Positions 1,966-29,759 of a stretch of 32,000 nucleotides of DNA are shown one piece after another. The stretch spans positions 1,530,001 to 1,562,000 of the forward strand of contig CBDCNV010000001.1 in the NCBI GenBank assembly GCA_965219535.1, read 5' to 3'. The translations under genes were made by a program, and so were the position numbers. The stretch is from Opitutales bacterium (GTDB lineage Bacteria; Verrucomicrobiota; Verrucomicrobiia; Opitutales; PNEW01). The notes beneath the pieces are model-generated. The model had not been told where the DNA came from. It saw only the letters and a list, made by a program, of their open reading frames with translations, and made no database searches. Numbering within the stretch: position 1 is the stretch's first letter; each line of letters starts with the position of its first letter.

Positions 1966-1982
1966 CTGAAATCAAACAAACT

Positions 1983-2189: not shown

Positions 2190-2208
2190 TCTATCGCGTC
2201 GCCAAAGA

Positions 2209-3150: not shown

Positions 3151-3151
3151 A

Positions 3152-3469: not shown

Positions 3470-3494
3470 CCCCCTGAATACTTACAGCTAGCTA

Positions 3495-5291: not shown

Positions 5292-5373
5292 AAATAGGGT
5301 CAATTTATGGGGAGAGCTATCAATACTCGTTGGCTTATCTTTGCTTATTAAGAAAAGCGCATATATTTCATTC

Positions 5374-9379: not shown

Positions 9380-9384
9380 GCGCG

Positions 9385-10674: not shown

Positions 10675-10680
10675 AATATA

Positions 10681-11775: not shown

Positions 11776-11797
11776 TCTAAATATAATAAATTGAGCT

Positions 11798-14040: not shown

Positions 14041-14051
14041 CCTATAAGAGA

Positions 14052-16373: not shown

Positions 16374-17296
16374 GTGATATTTCGATCGCCGTATTGTCTG
16401 GAGGTATTTCAAGAGAGCGCGATGTCTCTCTGGAATCGGGGCAAGCAGTTACAGCTGCATTAAAAGAGAATTATTCCGTTGATCTTTTTGAATTAAATGA
16501 AATGGCCCTCCCATCCAATCTCGATGCTGAAAGGCAGGTCGTTTTTTTAGCCTTACATGGAACTTTTGGCGAGGATGGAGAAATACAAAAAATGCTTGAA
16601 GAGGGAAATTTTTCTTACGCGGGCTGTGAATTTGAAGCGAGCCGCCTTTGTATTAACAAAAAAGAAACAAAAGCGCGTGTGGCAAAATCTGGTATCCGAG
16701 TTGCCGAAGACTTTTTAGCGGTAGCACCTGGTTTACCGGCAGCGACCGAAGTGGTTGCTAAACTCGGTAGCAGTGTCGTCGTTAAACCTTTATGCGAGGG
16801 GAGTAGTGTAGGTGTTTCAATAGCTGAAAACGAGGAAGTGCTCGGTGAACAAATGGCCCAGCTTGAATCTGGTAATTGGCTCTTTGAACAAAAGATAGAG
16901 GGGAGAGAAATCTCGATCGGGGTGCTTGAAGGTAAGGGAATGGGCCTCGTGGAAATATTACCAAAAAATGGGTTCTATGATTACAGGCACAAGTATACGG
17001 AAGGAATGACAGAATATCGTTACCCTGCCGAACTTGGAGATTCATTGGAGAAAGAAATTCGCGAAGCCGCGGAGTGTGCCTTTGAGATTTGTGGTTGCCG
17101 TGATTTTATCCGCGTCGATTTTATGACTTCGGATAGTGGGGAGAGCTATTTTCTAGAAATAAATACTCTGCCTGGTCTTACTTCTACGAGCCTCTTGCGT
17201 AAAAGTGCGAGCTGCCTGGGTTACGATTTTCCACAACTGGCACAGAAGCTGGTTTCACCGGCAATTAATAGATTTTATGCTTCGCGAGACAATTGA
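16370..17296 (+). CDS. ddl: D-alanine--D-alanine ligase
   Basis: ATP-grasp protein with IAVLSGGISRERDVSLESG, HGTFGEDG and FLEINTLPG. ATG 16370 overlaps the murC-murB stop as ATGA. Confidence 0.94.
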   Translation: MSDISIAVLSGGISRERDVSLESGQAVTAALKENYSVDLFELNEMALPSNLDAERQVVFLALHGTFGEDGEIQKMLEEGNFSYAGCEFEASRLCINKKETKARVAKSGIRVAEDFLAVAPGLPAATEVVAKLGSSVVVKPLCEGSSVGVSIAENEEVLGEQMAQLESGNWLFEQKIEGREISIGVLEGKGMGLVEILPKNGFYDYRHKYTEGMTEYRYPAELGDSLEKEIREAAECAFEICGCRDFIRVDFMTSDSGESYFLEINTLPGLTSTSLLRKSASCLGYDFPQLAQKLVSPAINRFYASRDN

Positions 17297-17298
17297 TC

Positions 17299-18231
17299 AT
17301 GGCAAAAAAGACATCCAATTCCACAGAGACAAGAAACTGGCGTGGAATTAAGCAAACAGCCGGACGGCAAGCGGTTAGCACAATAGCACGCAAACGTAAA
17401 TTTGTCGCTCACGCAAAAATGTACGGTGTCATTCTTATCATTTTATTAATGGCTGGAGGCATTGCGTATAGTGTTCACTTTTTCCGTTCTCATGAAAGTC
17501 AGATAATTCTCGCCGGTCCCTCTGATCCCGTGCGCCGTATTAACTTTCAAAGTAATGGAGAGCTCGACTACCAATGGTTCGAACATAATGTCGCCTGGCC
17601 ACAGGATAAGACAATCATGGAGATCGATATTTTTGCGATCAAACAGATGCTGGAAAAGAAAGGGCAGATCGCTTCGGCGGTTGTCTCACGGAAATTTCCC
17701 GATGAATTGCATATAGAAATTATAGAGAGAGACCCTGTTTTACGTGCGCGAGTTCAAAGTGAAAAAGGGGCAAAGGAGGAAGTTTATATCGCCCGGGATG
17801 GGACGGTATATTTTCATGAGAACTATGAAAAAACAAAAAAGAAACATTTACCTTATTTAGGTGGAGTTCGTTTCAAGCAGGATGACGATCACATTCTTTC
17901 TCTCCCTGGCATGGATGTAATCTCACAACTACTGGATACTGCCCGTTTAAATTACCCAAACATATTTGAGTCGTGGAAGGTAGTTTCTTGTGAGGAATTT
18001 GATGGTCTTAATGAATTCTCCGATGAGATTATTAAGATACGGAGCAGTATTGTTCGTGAGATAATATTCACTCCATTTGATTTTAATCGGCAATTGGATC
18101 AATTAGCGCGCATTATCAAATACTCTGAAAGAAACCACATTTATAATATTAAACGCATTGACCTCTCGATCAGCGACCAGGTTGCAGTACAATTTTATAC
18201 CGATCTTGGACCTAAAAAATTTAGAAATTGA
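17299..18231 (+). CDS. ftsQ: cell division protein FtsQ (POTRA domain)
   Basis: Bitopic protein with the TM segment YGVILIILLMAGGIAYSV, followed by POTRA/FtsQ-type beta-rich domains. It sits in the conserved position ddl-ftsQ-ftsA. The ORF-track start is TTG 17293; ATG 17299 is more likely. Confidence 0.75.
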   Translation: MAKKTSNSTETRNWRGIKQTAGRQAVSTIARKRKFVAHAKMYGVILIILLMAGGIAYSVHFFRSHESQIILAGPSDPVRRINFQSNGELDYQWFEHNVAWPQDKTIMEIDIFAIKQMLEKKGQIASAVVSRKFPDELHIEIIERDPVLRARVQSEKGAKEEVYIARDGTVYFHENYEKTKKKHLPYLGGVRFKQDDDHILSLPGMDVISQLLDTARLNYPNIFESWKVVSCEEFDGLNEFSDEIIKIRSSIVREIIFTPFDFNRQLDQLARIIKYSERNHIYNIKRIDLSISDQVAVQFYTDLGPKKFRN

Positions 18232-18260
18232 ATATAATATAATAAACCAACAATCCAATT

Positions 18261-19469
18261 ATGAACGAAAACAGAATCATTGGAGCAGTAGAAATAGGAG
18301 GTTCCAAGGTGGTCGTAATGGTGGGAGAAATTATCGATGGAGGAAGAAGCCTCAACATTATCGGGATGGGGCAGTCTACAGCGATGGGGGTGAGAAAGGG
18401 AGAAATTATCGATTTTCGTGCGGCGAGTGATTGTACCCATGCTGCGATCATCGCGGCCGAAAAAAATGCCGGGGCCACAATTGAGGGAGTATTTCTTGCT
18501 CAAACAGGAAGGCACCTTCAAGGCTTTGCAAATAAAAGCTCAGTTATGGTCAGCTCCCCTGACAGTCTCGTTCGCCAGAGCGATATTCAAAGCGTGATAG
18601 AAAATGCCAAACGCAAAGAGTTACCTCACAGACGCGTTTACATACACCATGTTCAGTGCGGATTTCAGTTAGATGGACGACCGGTCAAAGACCCTCATCA
18701 GATGCAAGGTGACGAATTGGATGTTACTTACTGGCACATAGAGGGAGATGAAAGAAAAGTAAGTGATCATATTCATGTAATTAATGGTTTTGGTTTGAAA
18801 GTCGAAGATATGATAATTTCAAGCATCGCCTCGGGCTGTATGGTTGCGAGTGAGGAGGAAAAGCAGAATGGTGTGCTCGTTTTGGATATCGGTTGTAGCA
18901 CTACAGATTACTTGCTTTATCGCAACGGACATATTGTGCGAACGGGAGTGGTAAGTGTTGGGGGTGATCACCTGACAAACGATTTAAGTCTGGGATTGCG
19001 CGTCAATAAACAGCAGGCCGAGAAACTCAAACTGGAATTTGGAAAAGCGATTATTGATAGCGAAGATAAAGATGAGAAGGTCTGGCTCTTCGGTGATTTG
19101 ACGATCGGTGATCGCGCCATACCCCGTTTGGCGATTTATCAAATACTTAAGGCCAGAATAGATGAGCTTTTCGGAATAGTAAAAAAGGAACTCGTCGAAT
19201 TTCTTAACCCCGAGGAATTAGCAGCTGGTGTGGTTTTAACGGGAGGGGTCTCACGCTTACCAAAAATTGCCGATGCTGCATCGCACCGATTAGGGATGTC
19301 TACACGGATCGGTGATAACCCGTCCTGGGTGAGAGATGATTTACGTAAACCGGAATACAGTACCGTGTTAGGGCTTCTTTACTATGGTCTTACGGCTCAA
19401 AATATAGAAGAGCAGAATATAAAGAAGTCAGGTCTTTTTAGTAAAGTAGCCAATATGTTTAACCTATAA
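18261..19469 (+). CDS. ftsA: cell division protein FtsA (actin-like ATPase)
   Basis: It has an actin/HSP70-fold phosphate motif (VEIGGSKVVV, LDIGCSTTD, LTGGVSRLP) and a C-terminal amphipathic membrane-targeting helix (GLFSKVANMFNL). Confidence 0.9.
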   Translation: MNENRIIGAVEIGGSKVVVMVGEIIDGGRSLNIIGMGQSTAMGVRKGEIIDFRAASDCTHAAIIAAEKNAGATIEGVFLAQTGRHLQGFANKSSVMVSSPDSLVRQSDIQSVIENAKRKELPHRRVYIHHVQCGFQLDGRPVKDPHQMQGDELDVTYWHIEGDERKVSDHIHVINGFGLKVEDMIISSIASGCMVASEEEKQNGVLVLDIGCSTTDYLLYRNGHIVRTGVVSVGGDHLTNDLSLGLRVNKQQAEKLKLEFGKAIIDSEDKDEKVWLFGDLTIGDRAIPRLAIYQILKARIDELFGIVKKELVEFLNPEELAAGVVLTGGVSRLPKIADAASHRLGMSTRIGDNPSWVRDDLRKPEYSTVLGLLYYGLTAQNIEEQNIKKSGLFSKVANMFNL

Positions 19470-19476
19470 TTATATT

Positions 19477-20748
19477 ATGCAGAGCGAAAATTTTAGTAAT
19501 CCGAATAAAATGTTTAGCGGTCAGGTAAATGATGAAACGATCCGGATAAAAATCGTCGGTATTGGCGGAGCTGGTAATAACGCAGTTGACCGAATTAAAC
19601 TGGATCACCTCGATAAAGTTGATCTCGCGGTAGTAAATACTGACAGCAAAGTTTTAAGTAATTCACTACTCGAGGAAAAGGTGATGATCGGACGTGAGAT
19701 CACCCGGGGCCTCAGTGCTGGCGGTGATGTCGATATCGGTAAGCGTGCGGCAGAATCCGATCGCGATCAATTGCTTCAGCTCGTTAATGGAATTGACCTT
19801 GTTTTTATAATCGCTGGTTTGGGGGGAGGAACGGGGAGTGGAGCGGCACCTGTTCTCGCAGAGATAGCTGCCAATCAGGAAGCTTTGGTTATCGCTTTTG
19901 TTACCTTACCATTTACGAATGAAGGCATTCGCAGGCATAATCAAGCAGAGGAGAGCCTCGCGCAACTGAGGGATTTATGCCATGCAGTTGTTCCCTTACC
20001 TAATGATATTCTCCTGCAGCAGGTTGACGAAAACGCCACCGTCCTCGACGCATTTACCCTCGCAGATGAATGGATATATCGTGGGGTGCATTCCATTTGG
20101 TCGATGATAAAAAAGACCGGTCTTATCAATGTCGATTTTGCTACCTTGAGAAACGCGTTTGAGAACAGGGGGGGGAAGACCCTTTTTGGTCTGGGATATG
20201 GTGAAGGTGAAAATTATGTCGATAAAGCGTTCGATGATCTAAAACTCTGCCCTTTATTACATACACCTGAATTTTCAAAACGCGCAGATTCACTCATTGT
20301 AAACGTTTATGGTGGGACTGATCTTACAATGAACAAAGTCAATGAGATTATGACGGTTATCGGGGATCAATTCGGGAGCAAAGAAAATATCGTATTAGGA
20401 GCTTATATTGATGAGAGCATGCAACAGAAGCTGAGTATTACCGTATTGGGTACGACAAATCTGGACGGTATAAGAAGACGTTACCCCTCAGTAAAACCTG
20501 CTTTCGAGCCCGTGAAACAAGCCCAGAATCCAGCGTCAACAAAACACAAAGAAGAGCATTATTTACCTGCTGTTCATGAATCGAAAATTATGGATCAATA
20601 TGATAGAAAAAATAGTCAGGAGGAATTTATGTTCTCGAGCAATGAGGAACAGAGGGGGTATTTTAATAAAACAGATCGTAATTTCTATGAAGGCGAAGAT
20701 CTTGATGTACCGACCTATCTCCGGCGTGGAATTAAAATAAATTTGTGA
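19477..20748 (+). CDS. ftsZ: cell division GTPase FtsZ
   Basis: It has the tubulin signature GGGTGSGAAPV, GIGGAGNNAV, an NTD T7-loop region, a long disordered linker and the conserved C-terminal peptide DLDVPTYLRRG. Confidence 0.97.
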   Translation: MQSENFSNPNKMFSGQVNDETIRIKIVGIGGAGNNAVDRIKLDHLDKVDLAVVNTDSKVLSNSLLEEKVMIGREITRGLSAGGDVDIGKRAAESDRDQLLQLVNGIDLVFIIAGLGGGTGSGAAPVLAEIAANQEALVIAFVTLPFTNEGIRRHNQAEESLAQLRDLCHAVVPLPNDILLQQVDENATVLDAFTLADEWIYRGVHSIWSMIKKTGLINVDFATLRNAFENRGGKTLFGLGYGEGENYVDKAFDDLKLCPLLHTPEFSKRADSLIVNVYGGTDLTMNKVNEIMTVIGDQFGSKENIVLGAYIDESMQQKLSITVLGTTNLDGIRRRYPSVKPAFEPVKQAQNPASTKHKEEHYLPAVHESKIMDQYDRKNSQEEFMFSSNEEQRGYFNKTDRNFYEGEDLDVPTYLRRGIKINL

Positions 20749-21111: not shown

Positions 21112-21345
21112 CCTCATCTTCGTCTTCGTCTGCCTCATCGTCTTCGTCCAAAATAATTTCCGACAATATTTCGTCGCGTAATTTGCATCCGATGGTGGAA
21201 CACTTTGCCTGACGGCCATAGGCTATGCAACGGCTGTTTCCGAGCGCGTTTGATTCTGTCGTAATTTAAGAAGCGTGCTAGGGACAGCCCGCTCCACCTT
21301 AAATAGCTCATAGGACGAAGAGACAGACGAAGACGATGACGAAGC
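21112..21345 (+). promoter_or_regulatory. structured leader/element: ~165-nt core bracketed by inverted arrays of the heptamer CTTCGTC (left x3) and GACGAAG (right x3); the right arm covers the ATG at 21336
   Basis: Read directly. CTTCGTC occurs at 21118, 21124 and 21142. GACGAAG occurs at 21314, 21328 and 21338. A perfect 14-bp complement exists between 21135-21148 (TCATCGTCTTCGTC) and 21328-21341. Internal helices are possible: GGTGGA 21194-21199 / TCCACC 21293-21298; GGCTGT 21232-21237 / ACAGCC 21284-21289; AGCGCG 21243-21248 / CGTGCT 21274-21279. It matches no RNA family I can recognise. Confidence 0.35.
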
Positions 21346-22475
21346 TTATTATTAACGAGGCGGGTTCAGTTCTCGACAATAAAGCTTTACTTGCGGTCTC
21401 GACAGTTTTTACCCTTAGCAAGGTGAGTAAACTTGAAGGTATATTTGTCCCTAATATCGTTCCTTTTGATGAAGAGGGAAAAATAAATGAAGATGAATTG
21501 CGTCGCCAAACTAACTGGTTGATTGATAAGGGAGTCTCCGGTCTTTATCCCAATGGGAGTTCGGGTGAATTCATTCGGCTCAGTTTCGAAGAGCGTAAGC
21601 GAATTATCGCAATTATGAGCAGTGAGGTGAGGGGGCGAGTGCCTATTCTCGCAGGGGGTGCTGAAGCAAATCTGGATATGATTCTTGAGGCCTGTAAAAC
21701 CTACGCTGATTATGGTTGTTCTGCCGTTTCTATTACTGGTCCTTATTATTACAATGTAAGCCAGGAAAGTATTGAGGAACTTTTTCGAGAGATTGCTGCT
21801 AAATCACCAATAGGGATCGTCATGTATAATATCCCCCAGTTTTCCAATGAAATCAGTGTACCGGTGGTTAAGCGTTTGGCCTTGGATTGTCCCAATATTG
21901 TCGGGATTAAAGACAGCAGCCGCGATATGCCGCGTTTTATTAATACCCTGAATGAAATTAAACCCCAACGTCCTGATTTCAGTGTTCTCGTAGGTTGTGA
22001 GGAAATACTATTTTCCACACTGATGATGGGAGGCGATGGGGGGACAATAGCAACCTCTGGAGTTGTCCCAGAGGCAGTAATGAAGCTCTATAATTGTTTT
22101 CTCTCGGGAGATCTGGACGAAGCAAAGCGGATTCAGTTTAAGCTTTTAGATCTCATTAACACAATGCTTTATGCTCCCGATTTTCCCCATGGATTTCGCA
22201 TCGGCTACGAATTAAGAGGATTCAATATGGGCAGTTCCCGTTACGTGCTTTCGCCGCGTGAGAAAGTGGAGTTGGATAATATCCGTTCAAAAGTTGCCTG
22301 CCTGCTCACGGAATGTGGTTTCGAAGAAGCGGCGAATAAGTGTCATATGCCAAGGGCAGATCTCGCACAACCATATAAAGGCACAACATTGGCAGACAAA
22401 CAGCCCTCTAGGGGAAAGACCGTTGACGTGGACAAAATAGTAGACGAGGTACTACGGAGTCTTGGTAAGAAATAA
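21336..22475 (+). CDS. DHDPS/N-acetylneuraminate-lyase-family class I (Schiff-base) pyruvate aldolase with a 50-aa C-terminal extension (linker plus amphipathic helix); N-terminal start ambiguous (ATG 21336 or GTG 21423)
   Basis: Family motifs are present: NGSSGEF (GxxGE), MYNIP (YN.P tyrosine) and VGIKDSS (Schiff-base lysine). The canonical N-terminus SKLEGIFVPNIVPFDEEGKINEDEL begins at the GTG at 21423. The family is normally ~290-300 aa; this ORF is 379 aa. The tail is EEAANKCHMPRADLAQPYKGTTLADKQPSRGKT-VDVDKIVDEVLRSLGKK. Confidence 0.85.
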   Translation: MTKLIINEAGSVLDNKALLAVSTVFTLSKVSKLEGIFVPNIVPFDEEGKINEDELRRQTNWLIDKGVSGLYPNGSSGEFIRLSFEERKRIIAIMSSEVRGRVPILAGGAEANLDMILEACKTYADYGCSAVSITGPYYYNVSQESIEELFREIAAKSPIGIVMYNIPQFSNEISVPVVKRLALDCPNIVGIKDSSRDMPRFINTLNEIKPQRPDFSVLVGCEEILFSTLMMGGDGGTIATSGVVPEAVMKLYNCFLSGDLDEAKRIQFKLLDLINTMLYAPDFPHGFRIGYELRGFNMGSSRYVLSPREKVELDNIRSKVACLLTECGFEEAANKCHMPRADLAQPYKGTTLADKQPSRGKTVDVDKIVDEVLRSLGKK

Positions 22476-22498: not shown

Positions 22499-23140
22499 AT
22501 GGCAAAAACCTCTGAAGCGATCACCGCCTTGGGCTTTGCCGAGGTTCCTTTCTGGAGTATTGGCGCGGTGGTGGCAGATACGATGGTTAAAGAGGCCAGG
22601 GTGACGCTGCTGGGGTTAGATACTACCGCCCTTGAAAATATCTTAATCCGCGTTGCCGGTGATGTATCAGATGTCAAATCCTCACTGCAAACCGCGATCG
22701 ATTTTGGCCGTGAACTGGGGGTAGAAGTAATTATCGGTGTTATTCCTTCTCCGGAGAGTGGATTTGATAAGGCGGTTAATTACCCCAATGCCATCAATCC
22801 TATTTATGGGGCACGTGAACAATTTTTACCAAGCGATTATAAAATAACACAGAAACAAAATATGAATGATAATCAACATGCATTAGGATTCCTGGAAACG
22901 CAGGGGCTTGTCGCGGTTTTAGAAGCAACGGATGCGATGCTCAAATCCGCAAATGTCACCCTTGTGGGAAAAGAAAAAATTGGGGCTGCTTATGTCACCG
23001 TGGTAGTAAAGGGTGACGTTGCGGCGGTCACCGCGGCGGTTGACGCCGGTAAAGAAGCGGTTAATGGATTAGGTACCCTTATCGCTTCACATGTAATTGC
23101 GCGACCCCATGCTGATCTTGCTGCGCTTCTTCCCGCTTAA
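22499..23140 (+). CDS. bacterial microcompartment shell protein, tandem BMC-domain (BMC-T type)
   Basis: Two Pfam00936-like domains sit in one 213-aa ORF. Domain 1 is ALGFAEVPFWSIGAVVADTMVKEARVTLLGL...IRVAGDVSDVKSSLQTA. Domain 2 is ALGFLETQGLVAVLEATDAMLKSANVTLVGKEKIGAAYVTVVVKGDVAAVTAAVDAGKEA (near-consensus). There are no cysteines. It starts 23 nt after the aldolase stop. Confidence 0.9.
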   Translation: MAKTSEAITALGFAEVPFWSIGAVVADTMVKEARVTLLGLDTTALENILIRVAGDVSDVKSSLQTAIDFGRELGVEVIIGVIPSPESGFDKAVNYPNAINPIYGAREQFLPSDYKITQKQNMNDNQHALGFLETQGLVAVLEATDAMLKSANVTLVGKEKIGAAYVTVVVKGDVAAVTAAVDAGKEAVNGLGTLIASHVIARPHADLAALLPA

Positions 23141-23248: not shown

Positions 23249-24403
23249 ATGATTAAACATATTTTTTCGGTAATAGTCATCTCTGTTTTATTTATAACCA
23301 GTAGTCCAATGAAAGAGAAAATATCAATGAATCAGACTGATCTCTATGTAAGTGGCAGTGAAGGCTATCACACATACCGTATCCCCGCATTGCTCGTATC
23401 AAAAAAAGATACAGTGTTGGCGTTTTGCGAAGGGCGTAAAACGGGTCAAAGCGATACTGGAGATATTGATATGCTCGTCAGATGTTCTGAAGACGGCGGT
23501 AAAACCTGGAGTAAACAAGAGGTAATCTGGGATGATGCGGCGAATGTCTGTGGCAATCCCTGTCCGGTTTTAGATGAAGAGACGGGTAAAATCTGGCTCT
23601 TAATGACCTGGAATCTTGGGACTGATTGTGAGAGCGAGATCATCGCCCAAACAAGCGATGATACGCGGCGAATTTATGTAACTTCCTCCCGTGACGATGG
23701 TTTGACTTGGGAAACGCCAAAAGAGATCACGTCATCGGTTAAGGAACCTGGGTGGACATGGTATGCAACTGGACCCTGTACGGGAATTCAGATTCAAGAG
23801 GGAAAATATAAAGGACGTCTTATCATACCCTGTGACCACATAGAAGCTGGGACGAAGAAATACTATTCCCATGTAATTTATTCGGAAGATCATGGTGAGT
23901 CGTGGGAATTAGGGGGAAGGACACCGGTTGACCAGGTGAATGAATGCCAGGCGGTGGAACTTGCGGACGGTAGTATTATGCTCAATATGCGTAATTACGA
24001 TCGAAGCAAACATACGCGCGCCGTTTCTATAAGTCATGATGGCGGCATAACGTGGGGTCCGCTAAACCGGGATCCTGCACTCATTGAACCAATTTGTCAG
24101 GGGAGTATTATTCGTTACACGCATGGTGCTCACGCAGATAAAAACCGAATCCTTTTTAGTAATCCCGCCAGTAAAACAGATCGGGAGAGAATGACCGTTA
24201 GGCTCAGTTACGACGAGGGTAAAACCTGGGCGGCATCAAAATTACTCCATGAGGGCCCTTCAGCTTATTCTGATCTTGCGGTTTTACCTCAGTGTGAAAT
24301 TGCCTGTTTTTATGAACGCGGGGAAACTCACCCTTACGAGAAAATCACTTTGGCCATCCTGGATCTATCCTCGTTGACGGATGGAGAGGATGTTCTCAAA
24401 TAG
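23249..24403 (+). CDS. exo-alpha-sialidase (GH33, BNR/Asp-box beta-propeller), probable signal peptide
   Basis: It has the YRIP (RIP) motif and FCEGRK. Five Asp-boxes are present: SEDGGKTWS, SRDDGLTWE, SEDHGESWE, SHDGGITWG, SYDEGKTWA. The C-terminal YSDL....FYERG contains the nucleophile Tyr/Glu region. The N-terminus MIKHIFSVIVISVLFITSSP is signal-peptide-like. Confidence 0.9.
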   Translation: MIKHIFSVIVISVLFITSSPMKEKISMNQTDLYVSGSEGYHTYRIPALLVSKKDTVLAFCEGRKTGQSDTGDIDMLVRCSEDGGKTWSKQEVIWDDAANVCGNPCPVLDEETGKIWLLMTWNLGTDCESEIIAQTSDDTRRIYVTSSRDDGLTWETPKEITSSVKEPGWTWYATGPCTGIQIQEGKYKGRLIIPCDHIEAGTKKYYSHVIYSEDHGESWELGGRTPVDQVNECQAVELADGSIMLNMRNYDRSKHTRAVSISHDGGITWGPLNRDPALIEPICQGSIIRYTHGAHADKNRILFSNPASKTDRERMTVRLSYDEGKTWAASKLLHEGPSAYSDLAVLPQCEIACFYERGETHPYEKITLAILDLSSLTDGEDVLK

Positions 24404-24407
24404 CGTC

Positions 24408-25439
24408 ATGGCCAGAATCAATGATCATCGCGAGTATTCACAAGGTAAAGTACCGTTGATTGATGTCGAGGGGACGGCCTTCGAATGCGGTGTCATGCTC
24501 GGTTACGCCTGGCAGGAGTCTTTACAGCTTAGGGCAAGCCGGATTGTTCACGGTTCAATTCCGTGGTGGAAGAATAAAAAATTCAACCGGCTCATAAAAA
24601 AATTTACACCTCATATCCCTGATGTATTTCTTGGAATGGCAAAGGGTTCGGGATTAAATGAAAATCAGATAGGAACTATCGGTCACGTAGAAGATGACGG
24701 GTGCACTTCTTTTGCGATTCAACCATCCGCGTCCCTCGACGGCATCCCTATTTCGGGACAATCTAAGGACACCGACGCATTCCGACAGTTTCAATTTCAA
24801 GTACTGCGTCTGAAGATGAGTAACGCGCCATCGGCATTAACGCTTACCTACCCGGGGTGGCTTTTTGGGCACGGATTTGTTCAAGGTCGTTGTTCAATTT
24901 TTCGCAATGCACTCTACGTTGATAACCCCAAGGGCGACCTGCCTTATTCGGCTTGGGGATTGATTGCTTTGCACTGCTCGTGTGTCGATGAGGTTATAGA
25001 ATTCACAAAACAATATCGGATTGAATTATGTGCTCACTGTACTGTTGCCGATGGGAAGGGTGGAGTAGCGGGAATTGAAATCACACCCCATGGAATTGGT
25101 ATTCTTAAACCCAAGCGTGGAATATATACCCATGCGAATTGTGTTGTTTCAAATAAACGCTTCGCAAAGACGGAAAATTTCGGTCAATTTACGCGTGAAA
25201 ATTCGCTTATGCGTGAAAGCACACTACGTAAGAATCTGGAACCTAACAACGGTCGATTGACTGCGCAGTTAGTTTACTGCAGCTTTTGTAATTTCATTGA
25301 CTTTCCCGAAAGTATCGATCGTCACGCTGGCGATGACGCACTAACCACTTCCGTCGTCATCGCAGAGCCAACCCTAGGTAAATTGCATGTCACGCGTGGG
25401 GCCGCTTCACGTAATTGGCCGGAAACTTACAGTTTGTAA
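24408..25439 (+). CDS. peptidase C45 / acyl-CoA:6-aminopenicillanic-acid acyltransferase-family Ntn-hydrolase-fold protein
   Basis: It has a Gly-Cys self-processing/nucleophile context (VEDDGCTSFAI) about 100 aa from the N-terminus, with size and layout typical of the family. ATG 24408 lies 4 nt after the sialidase stop. The ORF is open from 24381. Confidence 0.7.
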   Translation: MARINDHREYSQGKVPLIDVEGTAFECGVMLGYAWQESLQLRASRIVHGSIPWWKNKKFNRLIKKFTPHIPDVFLGMAKGSGLNENQIGTIGHVEDDGCTSFAIQPSASLDGIPISGQSKDTDAFRQFQFQVLRLKMSNAPSALTLTYPGWLFGHGFVQGRCSIFRNALYVDNPKGDLPYSAWGLIALHCSCVDEVIEFTKQYRIELCAHCTVADGKGGVAGIEITPHGIGILKPKRGIYTHANCVVSNKRFAKTENFGQFTRENSLMRESTLRKNLEPNNGRLTAQLVYCSFCNFIDFPESIDRHAGDDALTTSVVIAEPTLGKLHVTRGAASRNWPETYSL

Positions 25440-25828: not shown

Positions 25829-26857
25829 CTAGGCGTGAGCGGGGACGGTCTCCTTAACGAGTTCGACTAACTTATCCGCGTTGGGGAGATAGAATTTTTC
25901 CAATTCTGGTGAGAATGGCACGGGTGTATGTGGAGGGGTGAGCATCTTTGGCGCTGCATTAAGACTGTCAAACGCCTTGGAGGAAGCGAGAGCCACAACA
26001 TCCGTTGCAATGGAGCACCGTGGATTGTCTTCATCGACAACAATTAGATGCCCTGTTTTTCGCACTGAATTCAGAATCAATTCCTCATCAAGCGGTGACA
26101 TCGAACGAGGATCAATCACTTCCACACTAATATCATCTTGCTCCAGTTTTAACGCTGCTTCATAGGCGATGAGCACCATCTTTGAAAAAGCTACGATTGT
26201 TATATCTGTACCCTCACGAACGACCTCTCCTTTCCCCAGGGGAAGAAGATACTCTTCTTCGGGAACCGGCCCTTTGGTGTCATAGAGCCCCTTGTGCTCG
26301 ACAAAGATTACAAGGTCGTCATCACGAATCGCTGATTTCAACAGACCTTTAGCGTCATAGGGAGTTGATGGGGTGACCAGTTTTAACCCCGGGAGGTGAA
26401 CGAGAAGGGAGTGGCAGGAATGTGAATGCTGGGCCGCAGCGTTAAACCCTCCCCCGATCATTGTCCGCATGACCATTGGGACCTTCGCTTTTCCTCCGAA
26501 CATATAACGCATGGCTGATGCCTGGTTCATGATCTGATCGAGACAGAATCCAAGAAAATCGATAAACATTAATTCTACGATGGGTCGCATCCCGCTGGCC
26601 GCTGCACCCGCGGCGCAACCTACAATGGCACCTTCGGTTATTGGGGTGTCGCGGACACGCGATTTCCCGAATTTTCCGACCAGTCCTTTGGAGACACCGA
26701 ACGGACCACCCCACGCATCAAACTCATCTGGGGCTTCATTTTGCGCACCCCCGGCTATATCCTGTCCAAGGATAAAAACGCTTTCGTCACGCTGCATTTC
26801 TTCGTGTAGCGCTTCATTGAGGGCTTGCCGGTAAGTAACTTTTTTTCTATCAGCCAT
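25829..26857 (-). CDS. 2-oxoacid (pyruvate/acetoin) dehydrogenase E1 component, beta subunit
   Basis: 342 aa with a transketolase-like pyrimidine-binding and C-terminal domain layout. The sequence (VTYRQALNEALHEEM...VFILGQDI...RVRDTPITE...PRSMSPLD) is typical of PdhB/AcoB. Confidence 0.9.
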   Translation of the reverse strand: MADRKKVTYRQALNEALHEEMQRDESVFILGQDIAGGAQNEAPDEFDAWGGPFGVSKGLVGKFGKSRVRDTPITEGAIVGCAAGAAASGMRPIVELMFIDFLGFCLDQIMNQASAMRYMFGGKAKVPMVMRTMIGGGFNAAAQHSHSCHSLLVHLPGLKLVTPSTPYDAKGLLKSAIRDDDLVIFVEHKGLYDTKGPVPEEEYLLPLGKGEVVREGTDITIVAFSKMVLIAYEAALKLEQDDISVEVIDPRSMSPLDEELILNSVRKTGHLIVVDEDNPRCSIATDVVALASSKAFDSLNAAPKMLTPPHTPVPFSPELEKFYLPNADKLVELVKETVPAHA

Positions 26858-26875
26858 GACTTAATACTCCTAAAT

Positions 26876-27886
26876 TTAATAATTCACGTATACATCATTC
26901 AGACAGTCTTCGGGTTCGGGAAAGGGAGAAGACCTGCCAAATTCAATTGCTTTTTTAATAACATCCGCGACTTTCTCATCGATGGCTTTCATTTCTTCTG
27001 GAGTAACGCCGATCGCTGGCGCGACATTATTGGCGAATAGGACGAGCGGGTCGCGTTTTCGCGCTTCAATGGCTTCGTTTGGATCACGATATTTTAAGTT
27101 ATCTCCCTCGAAGTGTCCATAGAAGCGGGTCGTTTTGCATTCAAGTAGGGAGGGCCCTTTCCCCGCGCGGGCATGTTTAGCGGCTTCTTTAGTCGCCCGG
27201 TGAACGGCGATAATATCCTGGCCGTCAACAATAACACCCGGAATATTATAGGATTTAGCGCGTTCAGCGAGGTCCTTTACATTCATGGCATAGGAGGTCG
27301 CTGTCGTCTGGGCATAGCCATTGTTTTCACAGACGAAAACGCAGGGCAGATCCCAGATCGATGCCAGGTTGAGGGATTCATGAAAGATACCTTCGTTCGT
27401 AGCGCCATCCCCGAAAAAGCAGACTGCTACCTGACCGCTATTTCGCAATTGGGCGGAGAGTGCCGCACCCACGGCAATCGGTGTGCTACCAGCAACGATA
27501 CCGTTGGCTCCGAGCATCCCCTTAGAAAAGTCGGCGATATGCATCGATCCTCCCTTTCCTTTGCAAATACCCGTTACACGACCATAGAGTTCTGCCATCA
27601 TGCCATCTAATTCTACTCCCTTGGCGACGCAATGTCCATGACCACGATGGGTAGAAGTGATATAATCGTCATCGTTTATTGCGGTCATTACACCGGAGGC
27701 TATGGCCTCTTCACCCACGTAGCAGTGGACGAAACCGGGGAGCTCTCCCGCCGCAAAAAGTTCGTGAACGGCTTCGTCAAAGTCACGAACGCGTCGCATG
27801 TTTTCATACATCTTTAACCCCATTGCATGATCAATATCAGCAAATGATGTGGTCTCTTTGGGGGTTTCAGTTGTTACCTCAGCCAT
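26876..27886 (-). CDS. 2-oxoacid (pyruvate/acetoin) dehydrogenase E1 component, alpha subunit (TPP-binding)
   Basis: It has the TPP motif FFGDGATNEG...(N)NGYA, plus FVHCYVGEEA and STHRGHGH. Its ATG lies 1 nt after the E2 stop. Confidence 0.9.
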   Translation of the reverse strand: MAEVTTETPKETTSFADIDHAMGLKMYENMRRVRDFDEAVHELFAAGELPGFVHCYVGEEAIASGVMTAINDDDYITSTHRGHGHCVAKGVELDGMMAELYGRVTGICKGKGGSMHIADFSKGMLGANGIVAGSTPIAVGAALSAQLRNSGQVAVCFFGDGATNEGIFHESLNLASIWDLPCVFVCENNGYAQTTATSYAMNVKDLAERAKSYNIPGVIVDGQDIIAVHRATKEAAKHARAGKGPSLLECKTTRFYGHFEGDNLKYRDPNEAIEARKRDPLVLFANNVAPAIGVTPEEMKAIDEKVADVIKKAIEFGRSSPFPEPEDCLNDVYVNY

Positions 27887-27887
27887 T

Positions 27888-28901
27888 TTATCCGTCCTCC
27901 AATCTCAGGTTTTCTATTTTATCAACTAAGTCTTTTAAAAAAGTGGCTCCTGCAGCGCCATCGGCCACGCGGTGATCTAAAGTTAAACCTAATTCAATAA
28001 ATGGCGCAAGAGCTATCTGACCATTGTCTCCAGAAACGGCAAGTTGCTGAATGCGTCCAACGGAAAGAATGCCGGTTTGAGAGGGGTAAAGCAAAGCAGT
28101 AAAACGATCGACTGGAAACATTCCCAGATTGGTGACGGAAAAGGTTCCACCTTCCAGTTCATCCGTCAGAGCACTGCGTGAGCGCACCAGTTCGACGAGA
28201 TATTTCCTCTCCTCACAGATCTCGGGAAGTGATAAGCCACAGGCCCCTTTGACTACAGGAATCATCAACCCCTCTTCCATGGCGATGGCGAGGCCGACAT
28301 TTGCCTGGGAATGGATGCGCAACCCAGCATCTTCATAGGAGGAATTAAGACGGGGATGTTCTTTCAAGGTTCGGGAGACACAGAAAATTATAACATCATC
28401 ATAGGCAATAGTTCTATCCACTTCGCGAAGCTCCATCATTCTTGAGGCGGAAGCGCGGGTGAAAAGAGTAATCTGCGGGACAGCTGCTGAATGGGTGACG
28501 GTACGTGTAATTGCTTTACGCATATCCGACCAGGGTTCCAAACTGCCTTCATCCTGTTGCGTTACTTTTTGCTCTATAGGAGCAGCTTCCGAAGATACAG
28601 CCGTTGCGACTGGGGTTCCTGATTGATCAGGGTCTTCAGTTGAAATATCACTTTCCGATTCACCTTCCGCGAGGATCCATGCGATTGTTTCGGCGACATC
28701 GATTTCATCGCCCTCCTGCGCGGTAATACGCGCGAGCGTACCGTCTGCCGGTGAACTCAACTGGTTAACGATTTTATCGGTTTCGATCTCCGCGATTTCC
28801 TGTTTTTTTTCTATCTTGTCCCCTTCTTTAACAAGCCAGGAGACGAGTGTTCCTTCAGTCATCGTCAAACCGAGTTTAGGCATTTTTACAGGAACAGGCA
28901 T
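27888..28901 (-). CDS. dihydrolipoamide acyltransferase (E2): lipoyl domain plus catalytic domain, without a peripheral-subunit-binding domain
   Basis: The lipoyl-lysine motif EIETDKI lies in residues 1-78. An acidic/Pro-Ser-Thr linker spans 79-~122. The catalytic domain carries FSVTNLG and the active-site DHRVADGA. No GTGPGGRI-type E3/E1-binding motif is present. It is 337 aa, against the ~400+ aa usual for E2. Confidence 0.88.
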   Translation of the reverse strand: MPVPVKMPKLGLTMTEGTLVSWLVKEGDKIEKKQEIAEIETDKIVNQLSSPADGTLARITAQEGDEIDVAETIAWILAEGESESDISTEDPDQSGTPVATAVSSEAAPIEQKVTQQDEGSLEPWSDMRKAITRTVTHSAAVPQITLFTRASASRMMELREVDRTIAYDDVIIFCVSRTLKEHPRLNSSYEDAGLRIHSQANVGLAIAMEEGLMIPVVKGACGLSLPEICEERKYLVELVRSRSALTDELEGGTFSVTNLGMFPVDRFTALLYPSQTGILSVGRIQQLAVSGDNGQIALAPFIELGLTLDHRVADGAAGATFLKDLVDKIENLRLEDG

Positions 28902-28982
28902 GGTCTTAAAAATGTTTAATCATTCATCAGCAATAATGTGAATAAAAAAAGATATTTATCTTATATTAACATAGATATAAAA

Positions 28983-29759
28983 TCATATACCTTTCATAAG
29001 AAATCCCCCGTCGATGTAAATGTCCTGACCGGTAATATAACTGGAAGCATCAGAAGCTAAAAAGATGACCAATCCGGATAGATCATCGAGCTGGCCCCAG
29101 CGGTTTAAAAATGTTGTTTCGGCTCTCTCTTTGCGTTTTTCAGGATCATTCCAGGATTTTTCGGAGATCTGTGTTCTAAAATAGCCGGGGCCAATCGCAT
29201 TGGCTCTAACGCCGAATTCCCCCAGATCCATGGCGAGTGATTTAGTAAGCTGTTTAAGACCCCCCTTAGAAGCGATATAAGCAGGGTTATCTGTAAACCC
29301 GCGTTCCGCATTTATGCTTGTAATATTGATAATCGAGCCATTTCCCTGTTCCTTCATCAATTTCCCCATGCGCTTACTCAGCTGAAATGGCGCTTCCAGG
29401 TTTACCTTCATTGTTTCATTCCACAATTCGTCGGGGTAATCCAGACCATCGCGCTGAAAGCTTACCCCTGCGCAATTTACTAATATGTCGATTCTCTGAT
29501 GGTCCGATTTTATATAATATACGAGCGCGTCCATCTGTTTCAGGTCAGTGAGATCGCAGTACTTTTCGCATGCATTTAACCCCTCGCTCTTTAGCTTCTC
29601 TTTCCTCTCGGTAAGAAGCTGTTGATCCCTATCAACGAGAACGACCGTAGCTTCCGCTTTGAGTAGTGCATTGGCCAATGCGCCGCCAATGCCGCCACAA
29701 GCGCCCGTGACAATGGCGATTTTGCCTTTCAGAGAGAAGAGTTTATTTAAGTAGGTCAT
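28983..29759 (-). CDS. short-chain dehydrogenase/reductase (classical SDR; KduD/gluconate-5-dehydrogenase/butanediol-dehydrogenase-like)
   Basis: It has the cofactor motif TGACGGIGGALA, NCAGV, the catalytic S...YIASK, and PG..RT. It is 258 aa. Confidence 0.85.
   Translation of the reverse strand: MTYLNKLFSLKGKIAIVTGACGGIGGALANALLKAEATVVLVDRDQQLLTERKEKLKSEGLNACEKYCDLTDLKQMDALVYYIKSDHQRIDILVNCAGVSFQRDGLDYPDELWNETMKVNLEAPFQLSKRMGKLMKEQGNGSIINITSINAERGFTDNPAYIASKGGLKQLTKSLAMDLGEFGVRANAIGPGYFRTQISEKSWNDPEKRKERAETTFLNRWGQLDDLSGLVIFLASDASSYITGQDIYIDGGFLMKGI

What the first reader, a model, noticed from the sequence alone, without database searches (positions are those of the whole stretch)
22499..23140. 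Solitary tandem-domain BMC-T shell gene with no BMC-H or BMC-P partner in 32 kb
A closed shell needs hexamer (BMC-H) and pentamer (BMC-P) proteins. Here only one BMC-T is present. Its second domain is near-consensus and its first is diverged (FWSIGAVVADTMV..., DTTALENILIRVAGDVSDV). There are no cysteines, so it is not a PduT-like Fe-S pore. That pattern fits a satellite locus, which would supply a specialised pore or adaptor tile together with its cargo to a shell encoded elsewhere. PVC bacteria are known to carry a PVM-type fucose/rhamnose BMC. Alternatively the protein could have a non-shell scaffolding role.
Basis: partly seen in the sequence, partly recalled or inferred. Interest (0 to 1): 0.7.

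Follow-up and report, generated by a model that had tools for sequence, protein, structure and literature searches.

The report
Shell tile paired with targeted aldolase
The lone microcompartment shell gene is real and belongs to a widespread two-gene unit in Verrucomicrobia: a sugar-acid aldolase with a shell-targeting tail, followed by a dedicated shell tile, which most likely plugs a second fucose/rhamnose breakdown route into a microcompartment encoded elsewhere.

Summary
ORF 22499-23140 (+) encodes a 213-aa, cysteine-free tandem BMC-domain protein. Its first domain is diverged and its second is near-consensus. It is the only shell gene in the 32 kb window and in about 9.6 kb beyond the window end.

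It is not an isolated oddity. In 82 species-level loci, mostly Verrucomicrobiota, the same DHDPS-family class I aldolase sits immediately upstream in 73-74. The gap is usually -4 to +11 bp.

That aldolase carries a variable linker and a conserved amphipathic C-terminal helix, which is the anatomy of a microcompartment encapsulation peptide. The pair usually ends a non-phosphorylative L-fucose/L-rhamnose operon, whose aldolase step yields pyruvate and L-lactaldehyde.

In two species the pair directly abuts a canonical PVM main locus. In the window's Opitutales clade both genes are under purifying selection and the tail helix is invariant.

Best reading: a satellite "signature enzyme plus tile" module for a PVM-type lactaldehyde microcompartment. 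I could not check whether this genome has the main locus. The tile's exact role (pore or docking site) is inferred. This is a new variant of a known kind, of moderate interest.

The parts
21336..22475 (+). DHDPS/NAL-family class I aldolase, the predicted cargo. The longest ORF is 379 aa. Relatives start at the position of window 21423 (350 aa).
   Evidence: PF00701, E 1.1e-56. It is 58-68% identical to the DHDPS genes that precede the BMC-T in other species. The Schiff-base Lys (K163), Y135 and the GSxGE motif are invariant in alignment A2. It falls below the curated cut-offs of NanA and DapA. dN/dS is 0.03-0.11.
22344..22421 (+). Poorly conserved linker of the aldolase C-terminal extension (HMPRADLAQPYKGTTLADKQPSRGKT).
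   Evidence: The alignment of 76 orthologues shows a tail of variable length (24-59 aa) and composition after the conserved ...CGFxEAAxxC end of the core. It varies even within the window clade.
22422..22472 (+). Predicted encapsulation peptide: amphipathic helix VDVDKIVDEVLRSLGKK.
   Evidence: The motif phi-D-V-[DE]-x-I-V-x-x-V-[LM]-x-x-[LI] is present in 73 of 76 orthologues. The window helix has a hydrophobic moment of 0.83, against 0.78 for the 95th percentile of shuffles. The core DVDKIVDEVLR[SN]LGK is invariant in the clade while dS is 0.6 to >1. It resembles the AldDH N-terminal and class II aldolase C-terminal peptides of the PVM locus in L071. A low-confidence single-sequence AF2 model places a helix there, after a coil.
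22499..23140 (+). Tandem, non-permuted BMC-domain shell protein (BMC-T of the 'standard' class), 213 aa, no Cys.
   Evidence: PF00936 matches twice. The AF2 model has pLDDT 75.5 and shows two beta-alpha-beta BMC folds joined by a disordered linker. The best PDB match is the synthetic tandem BMC-H fusion 6NER, TM 0.72/0.83. More than 1,600 database relatives were found, and relatives occur in 330 GTDB species.
22520..22783 (+). Domain 1 (residues ~8-95), diverged. Its pore loop DTTALEN is at 22619-22639.
   Evidence: It scores 15.6 bits against the BMC-H profile. The family consensus loop is ETTGNEN; the A44/L45 changes occur only in the window clade, and S84 replaces the usual Arg before the invariant Pro85 there and in two other members.
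22784..22870 (+). Inter-domain linker carrying the family signature NAINPIYGAREQFLPSDY.
   Evidence: N97, N100, P101, Y103, G104, R106, Q108, L110, P111 and D113 are invariant in A1. The region has pLDDT < 50 in the monomer model.
22871..23137 (+). Domain 2 (residues 125-213), near-consensus BMC-H-like. Its pore loop KIGAAYV is at 22976-22996. The edge residues are K149 and R202-P203-H204.
   Evidence: It scores 109.8 bits against the BMC-H profile. GKEKIGAAYVTV, K149 and R-P-H are essentially invariant in 78 family members. It is 57-60% identical to PduA/EutM structures.

Best explanation
Genes 21336-22475 and 22499-23140 form a conserved two-gene satellite module of a PVM-type (Planctomycetes/Verrucomicrobia) lactaldehyde-processing microcompartment.

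The first gene encodes a class I (DHDPS/NAL-family) aldolase. It cleaves a 2-keto-3-deoxy-6-deoxyhexonate, most likely L-2-keto-3-deoxyfuconate or -rhamnonate, into pyruvate and L-lactaldehyde. Its C-terminal linker plus amphipathic helix acts as an encapsulation peptide that takes the enzyme into the shell.

The second gene is co-expressed from the same operon. It encodes a tandem-domain shell trimer that tiles into the facets of a shell built from BMC-H and BMC-P proteins encoded elsewhere. There it provides a pore suited to the acidic C6 substrate and to pyruvate, or the docking site for the aldolase tail, or both.

The toxic lactaldehyde is then handled inside by the core PVM enzymes (aldehyde dehydrogenase, phosphotransacylase).

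Shown: the gene pairing, the peptide anatomy, the pathway context in relatives, physical fusion to PVM loci in two species, and purifying selection.

Inferred: the substrate in this clade, the presence of a main locus in this genome, and the tile's precise role.
For: Pairing:
- DHDPS lies immediately upstream on the same strand in 73-74 of 82 species-level loci. Gaps cluster at -4 to +11 bp.
- In 3 more loci DHDPS is in the same operon.

Cargo signal:
- 73 of 76 aldolases end in a variable 24-59 aa tail with a conserved amphipathic helix.
- This matches the published definition of an encapsulation peptide (PMC4594438).
- The tail resembles the AldDH and class II aldolase peptides of the same PVM locus.
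- Solved DHDPS/NanA/YagE homologues are about 290-340 aa and align only up to residue ~317 of 379.

Pathway:
- Recurrent neighbours are MR_MLE dehydratase (30 loci), SDR (27), Amidohydro_2 lactonase (18), rhaM mutarotase (14), SSF (13), alpha-L-fucosidase (10) and RhaT (6).
- This is the non-phosphorylative L-fucose/L-rhamnose route, whose aldolase branch gives pyruvate and L-lactaldehyde (PMC11199699).
- L-lactaldehyde is the PVM microcompartment's substrate (PMC4207490, PMC8857213).

Link to a shell:
- L071 reads DHDPS, BMC-T, PTAC, 3x BMC-H, BMC-P, AldDH, 2x BMC-P, class II aldolase. L075 begins in the same gene order.
- Domain 2 keeps the canonical edge Lys and R-P-H in all 78 members.

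Function retained here:
- dN/dS is 0.10-0.13 for the tile and 0.03-0.11 for the aldolase core, and the helix is invariant.

Precedent:
- PVM main loci are catalogued in Opitutae and Opitutaceae genomes, and a PVM satellite tile in Opitutus.
- A 'T_pvm/Ts_mud' BMC-T clade is catalogued as PVM satellites.
- The 'EUT module' (EutABC + EutL) is a known enzyme-plus-tile satellite.
Against: - No BMC-H, BMC-P, AldDH, PTAC or class II aldolase was seen in about 42 kb around the gene. I could not inspect the rest of the genome.
- The window clade has lost the usual fucose-operon context. Upstream lie the dcw cluster and purS; downstream lie a sialidase and a C45 hydrolase.
- The nearest MR_MLE, beyond the window end, is only 32-34% identical to the dehydratases of the fucose-type loci. 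The substrate here may therefore differ.
- The clade is the family's most divergent. It has unique changes in the domain-1 pore loop and a rare Arg-to-Ser change at an edge position.
- The aldolase has no characterised close relative: best PDB hits are about 120 bits and no NCBIfam equivalog is met.
- Five of 82 loci carry the tile without the aldolase.
- Whether this family is the catalogued Ts_mud clade was not tested.
Confidence: 0.68

Rival explanations
1. Shell-less remnant or scaffold. This genome has no BMC-H/BMC-P main locus. The tile and the tailed aldolase act on their own: BMC-T sheets or trimers bind the aldolase tail and concentrate the enzyme, or channel its aldehyde product to a cytosolic reductase.
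For: There is no partner shell gene in about 42 kb. An Fe-ADH, a possible lactaldehyde reductase, lies about 15 kb downstream. The clade shows unusual substitutions at a domain-1 edge position and pore loop. Orphan tile copies exist in other species.
Against: Purifying selection acts on a protein whose second domain keeps every residue used for hexamer-hexamer tiling. The targeting helix is invariant. In nearly all relatives the pair is likewise far from any shell gene, yet in two it is fused to a full PVM locus, so distance alone says little. PVM main loci are catalogued in other Opitutae and Opitutaceae genomes, and a PVM satellite tile in Opitutus.
Confidence: 0.17
2. Sialic-acid module. 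The DHDPS-family enzyme is an N-acetylneuraminate lyase that works with the adjacent sialidase and the nearby GlcNAc-2-epimerase-family and PIG-L genes. The tile would then serve a sialic-acid-related compartment or scaffold.
For: A BNR sialidase follows 108 bp downstream. GlcNAc_2-epim and PIG-L genes lie about 8-10 kb downstream. The NanA models are among the top NCBIfam hits by E-value.
Against: The scores are far below the NanA cut-offs (147 vs 281 and 126 vs 382 bits), and the L009 orthologue from a plain fucose operon scores the same. The enzyme is 58-68% identical to orthologues in fucose/rhamnose operons that have no sialidase. The sialidase neighbour occurs only in the four loci of this clade. 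In a 96%-identical strain it is disrupted by an IS element while the pair stays intact.
Confidence: 0.08
3. Decaying relic. The shell gene is a non-functional leftover of a lost microcompartment locus.
For: It is solitary and its first domain is diverged.
Against: The reading frame is intact in at least four lineages separated by dS 0.6-1.2, with dN/dS of 0.10-0.13. The diverged first domain is a conserved family trait, with K31, G39, P85 and the linker motif kept across the family.
Confidence: 0.03

Closest known systems
PVM microcompartment satellite BMC-T ('T_pvm' / Ts_mud clade of Sutter et al. 2021, PMC8217296)
   Same: Both are tandem, non-permuted BMC-T proteins of 202-233 aa, encoded away from the main locus in PVC bacteria, and are not the PduT/Fe-S type. 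The window family is physically joined to a PVM main locus in L071 and L075.
   Different: The catalogued members I could read are Planctomycetes and Acidobacteria, whereas this family is Verrucomicrobiota. Membership in that clade was not tested. The texts I could search do not mention a partner class I aldolase for PVM.
'EUT module' satellite loci (EutA/B/C + EutL-type BMC-T) described for HO, SPU3 and SPU6 microcompartments
   Same: A signature enzyme with an encapsulation peptide is encoded next to one BMC-T, away from the main locus. This is interpreted as a functional extension that lets an existing shell use an extra substrate.
   Different: The enzyme here is a class I aldolase rather than ethanolamine ammonia-lyase. 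The tile is a non-permuted BMC-T rather than the permuted EutL type. The product is lactaldehyde rather than acetaldehyde.
PVM signature enzyme: class II aldolase (PF00596) with a C-terminal encapsulation peptide
   Same: It also produces L-lactaldehyde from a fucose/rhamnose derivative. It also has a C-terminal linker plus amphipathic helix, with a similar helix pattern.
   Different: The fold and mechanism are unrelated (metal-dependent class II vs Schiff-base class I). The substrate is a phosphorylated ketose and the co-product is DHAP; here the substrate is a 2-keto-3-deoxy acid and the co-product is pyruvate.
CcmO (beta-carboxysome tandem BMC protein) and PduT
   Same: All share the two-domain, non-permuted architecture. 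CcmO is the only NCBIfam model that aligns over the full length (residues 10-212).
   Different: The protein scores 108 vs 270 bits for CcmO and 53 vs 250 bits for PduT. There are no carboxysome genes and no pore cysteine. The family has its own conserved inter-domain linker.
[quoted passage not shown]
   Same: The reaction and pathway position are the same as inferred from the operon context of relatives. From my own recollection, not checked here, that enzyme is also of the DHDPS/NAL superfamily.
   Different: No sequence comparison with the characterised enzyme was possible. The characterised enzymes are not reported with an encapsulation tail or a shell-protein neighbour.
MUF2 loci (Gemmatimonadetes) with a 'nearby pfam00701 class I aldolase'
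   Same: This is the only published mention I found of a PF00701 aldolase near microcompartment genes. Its AldDH is the closest relative of the PVM one.
   Different: The phylum, the shell set and the BMC-T clade (Ts_hazel/steelBlue) are different. The extra feature reported for that aldolase is an N-terminal domain shared with a neighbouring protein; no C-terminal encapsulation peptide is reported on it.

Membership tests
BMC-T, standard (non-permuted tandem) class | Two PF00936 domains on one chain | tested here: met
   Pfam finds 2 stretches, 132 bits. Per-domain scores are 15.6 and 109.8 bits.
BMC-T, standard (non-permuted tandem) class | Canonical (not circularly permuted) secondary-structure order in both domains | tested here: met
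   Domain 2 aligns co-linearly to Pfam positions 1-75. The AF2 model shows the E-H-E-E-H-E order twice. The best fold match is the tandem BMC-H fusion 6NER, TM 0.72/0.83.
BMC-T, standard (non-permuted tandem) class | Edge residues used for tiling with neighbouring hexagons (Lys of helix A; Arg-Pro-His near the C-terminus) | tested here: met
   K149 and R202-P203-H204 are invariant in 78 members. In domain 1, K31 and P85 are kept, but the usual Arg84 is Ser in the window clade.
BMC-T, standard (non-permuted tandem) class | Forms a trimeric pseudohexamer that is incorporated into shells | not testable with these tools
   Only a monomer model could be made.
PduT-type Fe-S BMC-T | Pore cysteine ligating a 4Fe-4S cluster; passes the PduT equivalog model | tested here: not met
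   The protein has 0 Cys. TIGR02526 scores 52.7 bits against a cut-off of 250.3.
CcmO (beta-carboxysome) | Passes the curated equivalog model; carboxysome gene context | tested here: not met
   NF053792 scores 107.9 bits against a cut-off of 270. There are no RuBisCO or Ccm genes in the window.
Satellite locus of a PVM microcompartment (Axen 2014 / Sutter 2021 definitions) | Shell gene(s), with or without enzymes, encoded away from any BMC-H + BMC-P main locus | tested here: met
   It is the only shell gene in 32 kb plus about 9.6 kb. The same holds in 78 of the 80 GTDB loci, within flanks of up to 10 kb.
Satellite locus of a PVM microcompartment (Axen 2014 / Sutter 2021 definitions) | A main locus (BMC-H + BMC-P, AldDH, PTAC, class II aldolase) elsewhere in the same genome | not testable with these tools
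An indirect attempt through contig lengths of BMC-H homologues found nothing among the 120 hits listed, out of more than 7,899.
Satellite locus of a PVM microcompartment (Axen 2014 / Sutter 2021 definitions) | Orthologues associated with PVM core genes in other genomes | tested here: met
   L071 reads DHDPS, BMC-T, PTAC, 3x BMC-H, BMC-P, AldDH, 2x BMC-P, Aldolase_II. L075 shows the same start.
Satellite locus of a PVM microcompartment (Axen 2014 / Sutter 2021 definitions) | Falls in the catalogued Ts_mud / T_pvm clade | not tested
   The catalogue sequences and HMMs were not available. The stored tree text lists only Planctomycetes, Acidobacteria and one Halanaerobium (Firmicutes) outlier in that clade.
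Encapsulation peptide (on the aldolase) | [quoted passage not shown] | tested here: met
   The motif is conserved in 73 of 76 orthologues. The hydrophobic moment is 0.83, against 0.78 for the 95th percentile of shuffles. AF2 gives a low-confidence helix at residues 336-346 of the 350-aa form.
Encapsulation peptide (on the aldolase) | Joined to the enzyme core by a poorly conserved linker | tested here: met
   The tail is 24-59 aa with no conserved columns between the ...C end of the core and the helix.
Encapsulation peptide (on the aldolase) | Absent from homologues that are not microcompartment-associated | tested here: met
   All 60 listed PDB homologues (DapA, NanA, YagE, KDG aldolase; 289-343 aa) align only within query residues ~22-318 of 379.
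Encapsulation peptide (on the aldolase) | Sufficient to target a protein to the shell | not testable with these tools
   This needs an experiment.
N-acetylneuraminate lyase (NanA) | Passes the curated equivalog models | tested here: not met
   NF003164 scores 147.3 against 281, and TIGR00683 scores 126.2 against 382.
4-hydroxy-tetrahydrodipicolinate synthase (DapA) | Passes the curated equivalog model | tested here: not met
   TIGR00674 scores 142.6 against 206.15.
Class I 2-keto-3-deoxy-L-fuconate/rhamnonate aldolase | Schiff-base Lys, catalytic Tyr and carboxylate-binding GSxGE motif of the DHDPS/NAL fold | tested here: met
   K163, Y135 and G45-S46-x-G48-E49 are invariant in 28 orthologues.
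Class I 2-keto-3-deoxy-L-fuconate/rhamnonate aldolase | Encoded with the dehydrogenase, lactonase and dehydratase of the non-phosphorylative route | tested here: inconclusive
   This is met for many relatives. It is not met in the window, where only an SDR and, beyond the window end, a distantly related MR_MLE lie nearby.
Class I 2-keto-3-deoxy-L-fuconate/rhamnonate aldolase | Cleaves L-KDF/L-KDR to pyruvate and L-lactaldehyde | not testable with these tools
   This needs an enzyme assay.

The most novel reading that the evidence does not exclude
The aldolase-plus-tile pair is an undescribed, portable 'second entrance' to the PVM microcompartment. It would route the non-phosphorylative (sugar-acid) catabolism of 6-deoxyhexoses into the organelle through a class I aldolase and its own dedicated tile. 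In the window's Opitutales clade the module would have been re-tuned to a different 2-keto-3-deoxy sugar acid, perhaps derived from an acetamido or other modified sugar. The signs of re-tuning are the changed domain-1 pore loop (ETTGNEN to DTTALEN), the Arg84-to-Ser change, and the move to a new neighbourhood with a sialidase, PIG-L, an epimerase-family gene and a distant MR_MLE.
Probability: 0.25. Interest if true: 0.6.

Novelty: new variant of a known kind. Interest (0 to 1): 0.42.

Why it matters
PVM microcompartments are thought to let Verrucomicrobia and Planctomycetes consume fucose- and rhamnose-rich algal and plant polysaccharides without being poisoned by lactaldehyde. Published schemes feed them only through the phosphorylated route and a class II aldolase. 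One paper even treats the non-phosphorylative route as a cytosolic alternative that avoids lactaldehyde.

A conserved class I aldolase with a targeting tail and its own shell tile occurs in about 330 species-level genomes. This suggests the organelle also takes in sugar-acid intermediates. It gives a natural, compact two-gene example of how a new substrate is plugged into an existing shell.

That is directly testable, and it is useful for engineering: a ready-made pair of targeting peptide and matching tile. For this particular window, it shows that the lone shell gene is a working part of a known type of system, not an anomaly.

Tried and rejected
1. Finding the main locus in the same genome.
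- I then searched with a PVM BMC-H from L071, hoping to recognise hits by the contig lengths of the window clade (5,050,799; 4,492,227; 3,314,608; 2,294,292; 2,142,214; 1,412,859; 1,353,866 bp).
- More than 7,899 hits passed and none of the 120 listed lies on those contigs. This is uninformative, not negative evidence.

2. Walking outward with exact-protein look-ups.
- Downstream worked (L092).
- Upstream failed twice because the ORFs as I delimited them are not on record.

3. AF2 of the aldolase.
- The single-sequence model is poor, with pLDDT 48.5, so I use it only as weak support for the terminal helix.

4. Literature.
- No paper in the searchable library combines microcompartment, dihydrodipicolinate synthase and fucose.
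- None links KDF/KDR aldolase to microcompartments.
- The Watanabe 2020 paper is not held.
- The catalogue's figure of PVM satellite organisation is not held as text, and its tree files are truncated. I therefore cannot exclude that the pairing is drawn there.

5. My first gene-calling heuristic (longest ORF) picked antisense ORFs in high-GC loci. I replaced it with a conservation-weighted choice.

6. Rejected readings.
- PduT-like Fe-S pore: no Cys, and the model fails.
- CcmO: the model fails, and the context is wrong.
- NanA or DapA identity of the aldolase: both are below the curated cut-offs.
- Pseudogene: dN/dS is about 0.1.
- Orphan tile copies as a separate paralogue clade: their nearest relatives are aldolase-linked copies at 76-84% identity.
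Full report
**Observation**

The ORF at 22499-23140 (+) exists exactly as reported: ATG start, 213 aa.
- Pfam finds two BMC (PF00936) stretches, E 7.6e-39.
- I scored the two halves against a hexamer profile built from three BMC-H genes of locus L071. The second domain scores 109.8 bits and the first only 15.6 bits.
- The protein has no cysteine.
- A six-frame profile search of the whole window found no other BMC-domain fragment and no EutN/CcmL fragment; all other hits had E > 1.
- Pfam scans of the large ORFs agree.
- The same metagenomic contig read about 9.6 kb past the window end also has no shell gene.

**Organism and neighbourhood**

The window carries a complete dcw cluster (mraZ to ftsZ, 1483-20748) with a MurC-MurB fusion, followed by purS. 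Then come a DHDPS-family gene (21336-22475), the shell gene, a BNR sialidase, and a C45-family hydrolase. On the other strand lie a 2-oxoacid dehydrogenase E1/E2 set and an SDR.

The exact protein is encoded on long-read metagenome contigs of up to 1.35 Mb. Its closest named relative, at 97% identity, is on the 4.49-Mb chromosome of an Opitutales MAG, OY829953.1.

**The key result: a conserved gene pair**

The first distant homologue I looked at (66% identity) also sits directly after a DHDPS-family gene. It lies at the end of an operon of fucosidases, a sodium-solute symporter, rhaM, an alcohol-type dehydrogenase, an MR_MLE dehydratase, two SDRs and an Amidohydro_2 lactonase.

A scan of one genome per GTDB species found relatives in 330 species; the best 80 loci were fetched. 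I analysed 82 species-level loci: those 80, plus the window and L009.
- In 73-74 loci a DHDPS orthologue lies immediately upstream on the same strand. Most gaps are between -4 and +11 bp.
- In three loci it is in the same operon, 7.6 kb away.
- In five loci it is absent.
- The tile-only copies do not form a separate clade.

The most frequent other neighbours are MR_MLE (30 loci), SDR (27), Amidohydro_2 (18), rhaM (14), SSF transporter (13), alpha-L-fucosidase (10) and RhaT (6). This is the non-phosphorylative L-fucose/L-rhamnose route. In it, an aldolase cleaves the 2-keto-3-deoxy acid into pyruvate and L-lactaldehyde (PMC11199699).

The data answer it in the opposite sense.

**The aldolase is built like cargo**

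An alignment of 76 orthologues shows the following.
- The catalytic core ends at a conserved ...CGFxEAAxxC.
- A tail of 24-59 residues follows. Its first part has no conserved columns.
- The tail ends, in 73 of 76 sequences, in the helix pattern phi-D-V-[DE]-x-I-V-x-x-V-[LM]-x-x-[LI].
- The window version is VDVDKIVDEVLRSLGKK. Its hydrophobic moment is 0.83, against 0.78 for the 95th percentile of shuffled tails.

This matches the published definition of a microcompartment encapsulation peptide: a 15-20 residue amphipathic helix, joined by a poorly conserved linker, and missing from non-compartment homologues (PMC4594438).
- Solved DHDPS, NanA and YagE structures align only to residues ~22-318 of the 379.
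- Within one PVM locus (L071), the aldehyde dehydrogenase N-terminus (ETLVRDIVSEVLGRL) and the class II aldolase C-terminus (AVKAITDQIMAQIGK) show the same pattern as that locus's DHDPS tail (MDQIVHEVLKTLGK).

The enzyme keeps the Schiff-base lysine, the catalytic tyrosine and the GSxGE motif. It fails the curated models for NanA and DapA, so it is a distinct class I aldolase subfamily.

**Link to a real shell**

In 78 of the 80 GTDB loci no other shell gene lies within the fetched flanks. 'Solitary' is therefore the normal state of this pair.

In L071 the order is DHDPS, BMC-T, PduL-type phosphotransacylase, three BMC-H, BMC-P, aldehyde dehydrogenase, two BMC-P, class II aldolase. That is a textbook PVM main locus. 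L075 begins in the same gene order.

The PVM compartment processes L-lactaldehyde (PMC4207490, PMC8857213), which is exactly the expected product of the paired aldolase. PVM main loci are catalogued in Opitutae and Opitutaceae genomes, and a PVM satellite tile in Opitutus.

**The tile itself**

- The family is strongly conserved, with median pairwise identity of 65%.
- It has a signature inter-domain linker, FPNAQNPLYGGRDQFLPTDYP.
- An AF2 model (pLDDT 75.5) shows two canonical BMC folds joined by a disordered linker.
- Its best structural match is a synthetic tandem fusion of two BMC-H domains, 6NER, with TM 0.72/0.83.
- CcmO is the only curated model that aligns over the full length, but the score is far below the cut-off. 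PduT fails.

The protein is therefore a 'standard', non-permuted BMC-T that is neither CcmO nor PduT.

In domain 2 the pore loop GKEKIGAAYVTV, the edge lysine and the R-P-H motif are essentially invariant in 78 members. This fits a protein that must tile with ordinary hexamers.

The domain-1 pore loop is ETTGNEN in most members but DTT[AT]LE[NS] in the window clade only. The window clade, with two other members, also has Ser in place of the usual Arg before the invariant Pro85.

**Is it functional here?**

I compared the four lineages of the window clade (window, L012, L013, L014; dS up to 1.2 for the tile and 2.1 for the aldolase core).
- dN/dS is 0.10-0.13 for the tile.
- dN/dS is 0.03-0.11 for the aldolase core.
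- The linker drifts, while DVDKIVDEVLR[SN]LGK does not change.

Both the tile and the targeting helix are under selection. That makes most sense if there is a shell to join.

**What remains open**

1. I could not show that this genome has a main locus. An indirect attempt through BMC-H homologues and contig lengths drowned in more than 7,899 hits.

2. In the window clade the pair has left the fucose operon.
- The sialidase neighbour is confined to this clade. In a 96%-identical strain it is broken by an IS element while the pair is intact.
- Beyond the window end lie GlcNAc-2-epimerase-family, PIG-L, two 2-hydroxyacid dehydrogenase genes, an Fe-ADH and an MR_MLE.
- That MR_MLE is only 32-34% identical to the fucose-type dehydratases.
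- A similar mix (PIG-L, MR_MLE, lactonase, SDR) surrounds the tile in the L029-type operon.
- The substrate in this clade may therefore not be L-KDF or L-KDR.

3. Whether the tile acts as a substrate pore, as the docking site for the aldolase tail, or as both is inference.

**Comparison with what is known**

- Satellite loci are a defined concept. The 2021 catalogue lists a 'T_pvm / Ts_mud' BMC-T clade of 202-233 aa, mostly labelled 'PVM (sat)', in Planctomycetes.
- The same paper describes 'EUT modules' (EutABC plus EutL) as satellites that extend a shell to a new substrate.
- In the texts I could search, a PF00701 class I aldolase is mentioned only once, for MUF2 loci of Gemmatimonadetes.
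- No paper in the library links a DHDPS-type or KDF/KDR aldolase to microcompartments.
- Published PVM schemes use only the phosphorylated route.
- The catalogue's figure of PVM satellite organisation is not available to me. The pairing may be drawn there without comment.

**Verdict**

The finding is real. The thing is best filed as a new variant of a known kind: an enzyme-plus-tile satellite module for a PVM-type compartment, using a class I aldolase as an alternative signature enzyme.

A specialist would find it useful and plausible rather than startling, so I score interest at 0.42. My confidence in the stated mechanism for this genome is 0.68.

Noticed in passing
window 14052-16373 (+): A single 773-aa ORF fuses MurC (Mur ligase domains) to MurB (FAD_binding_4 + MurB_C). 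It lies inside a complete dcw cluster that also keeps ftsQ, ftsA and ftsZ.
   Followed up: no
L004 and L005, 10832-13189 (the 96%-identical strain): The BNR sialidase gene downstream of the shell gene is interrupted by an IS element (rve integrase + HTH_Tnp_1 ORFs). The aldolase and tile genes stay intact.
   Followed up: partly
window 24381-25439 (+): A C45-family autoproteolytic acyltransferase/hydrolase (NF040521, 103 bits against a cut-off of 85). Its longest ORF overlaps the end of the sialidase gene by 23 nt.
   Followed up: no
window 25829-29759 (-): E1-beta, E1-alpha and E2 genes of a 2-oxoacid (possibly acetoin-type) dehydrogenase, followed by an SDR. No E3 gene is nearby.
   Followed up: no
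L092 11027-18834 (just beyond the window end): GlcNAc-2-epimerase-family, PIG-L deacetylase, two 2-hydroxyacid dehydrogenases, an MR_MLE dehydratase (only 32-34% identical to the fucose-locus ones), an Fe-ADH and a PhyH gene. This may be a different sugar-acid pathway that feeds the aldolase in this clade.
   Followed up: partly
L029, L038, L054 (about 2.6-17.8 kb): In these Luteolibacter/Akkermansiaceae loci the tile sits mid-operon, after an 809-aa protein with no Pfam match. It is followed by SDR, CoA-transferase, thiolase, PIG-L, an alpha/beta hydrolase and an SGL lactonase. The tailed aldolase is the last gene.
   Followed up: partly
L025 4746-6899 and L080 6794-8953: Two of the aldolase-less tile copies are followed by the same protein family. 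In L025 it scans as a dCache-HAMP-SpoIIE (PP2C) membrane sensor phosphatase.
   Followed up: no
L026 and L064 (same Luteolibacter MAG, CAYRLT01): One genome carries two copies of the tile, one aldolase-linked and one orphan.
   Followed up: no
window 22619-22639 and 22748-22750: Only the window clade has A/T-L instead of G-N in the domain-1 pore loop. It also has Ser instead of Arg before the invariant Pro85 (6 of 78 members). It is the most divergent branch of the family: 56% median identity to the rest, against 65% among the rest.
   Followed up: partly
L071 4926-6065: A second, very divergent PF00701 protein (41 bits) lies upstream in the same locus as the tailed aldolase. An FGE-sulfatase-domain protein directly precedes the pair.
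   Followed up: no
L002 6980-8250; L005 1664-3974; L006 17540-19744: Several long-read assemblies split otherwise intact genes (ftsZ, murC-murB, the binding protein, the epimerase) into two ORFs. These are probably homopolymer frameshift errors rather than biology.
   Followed up: no
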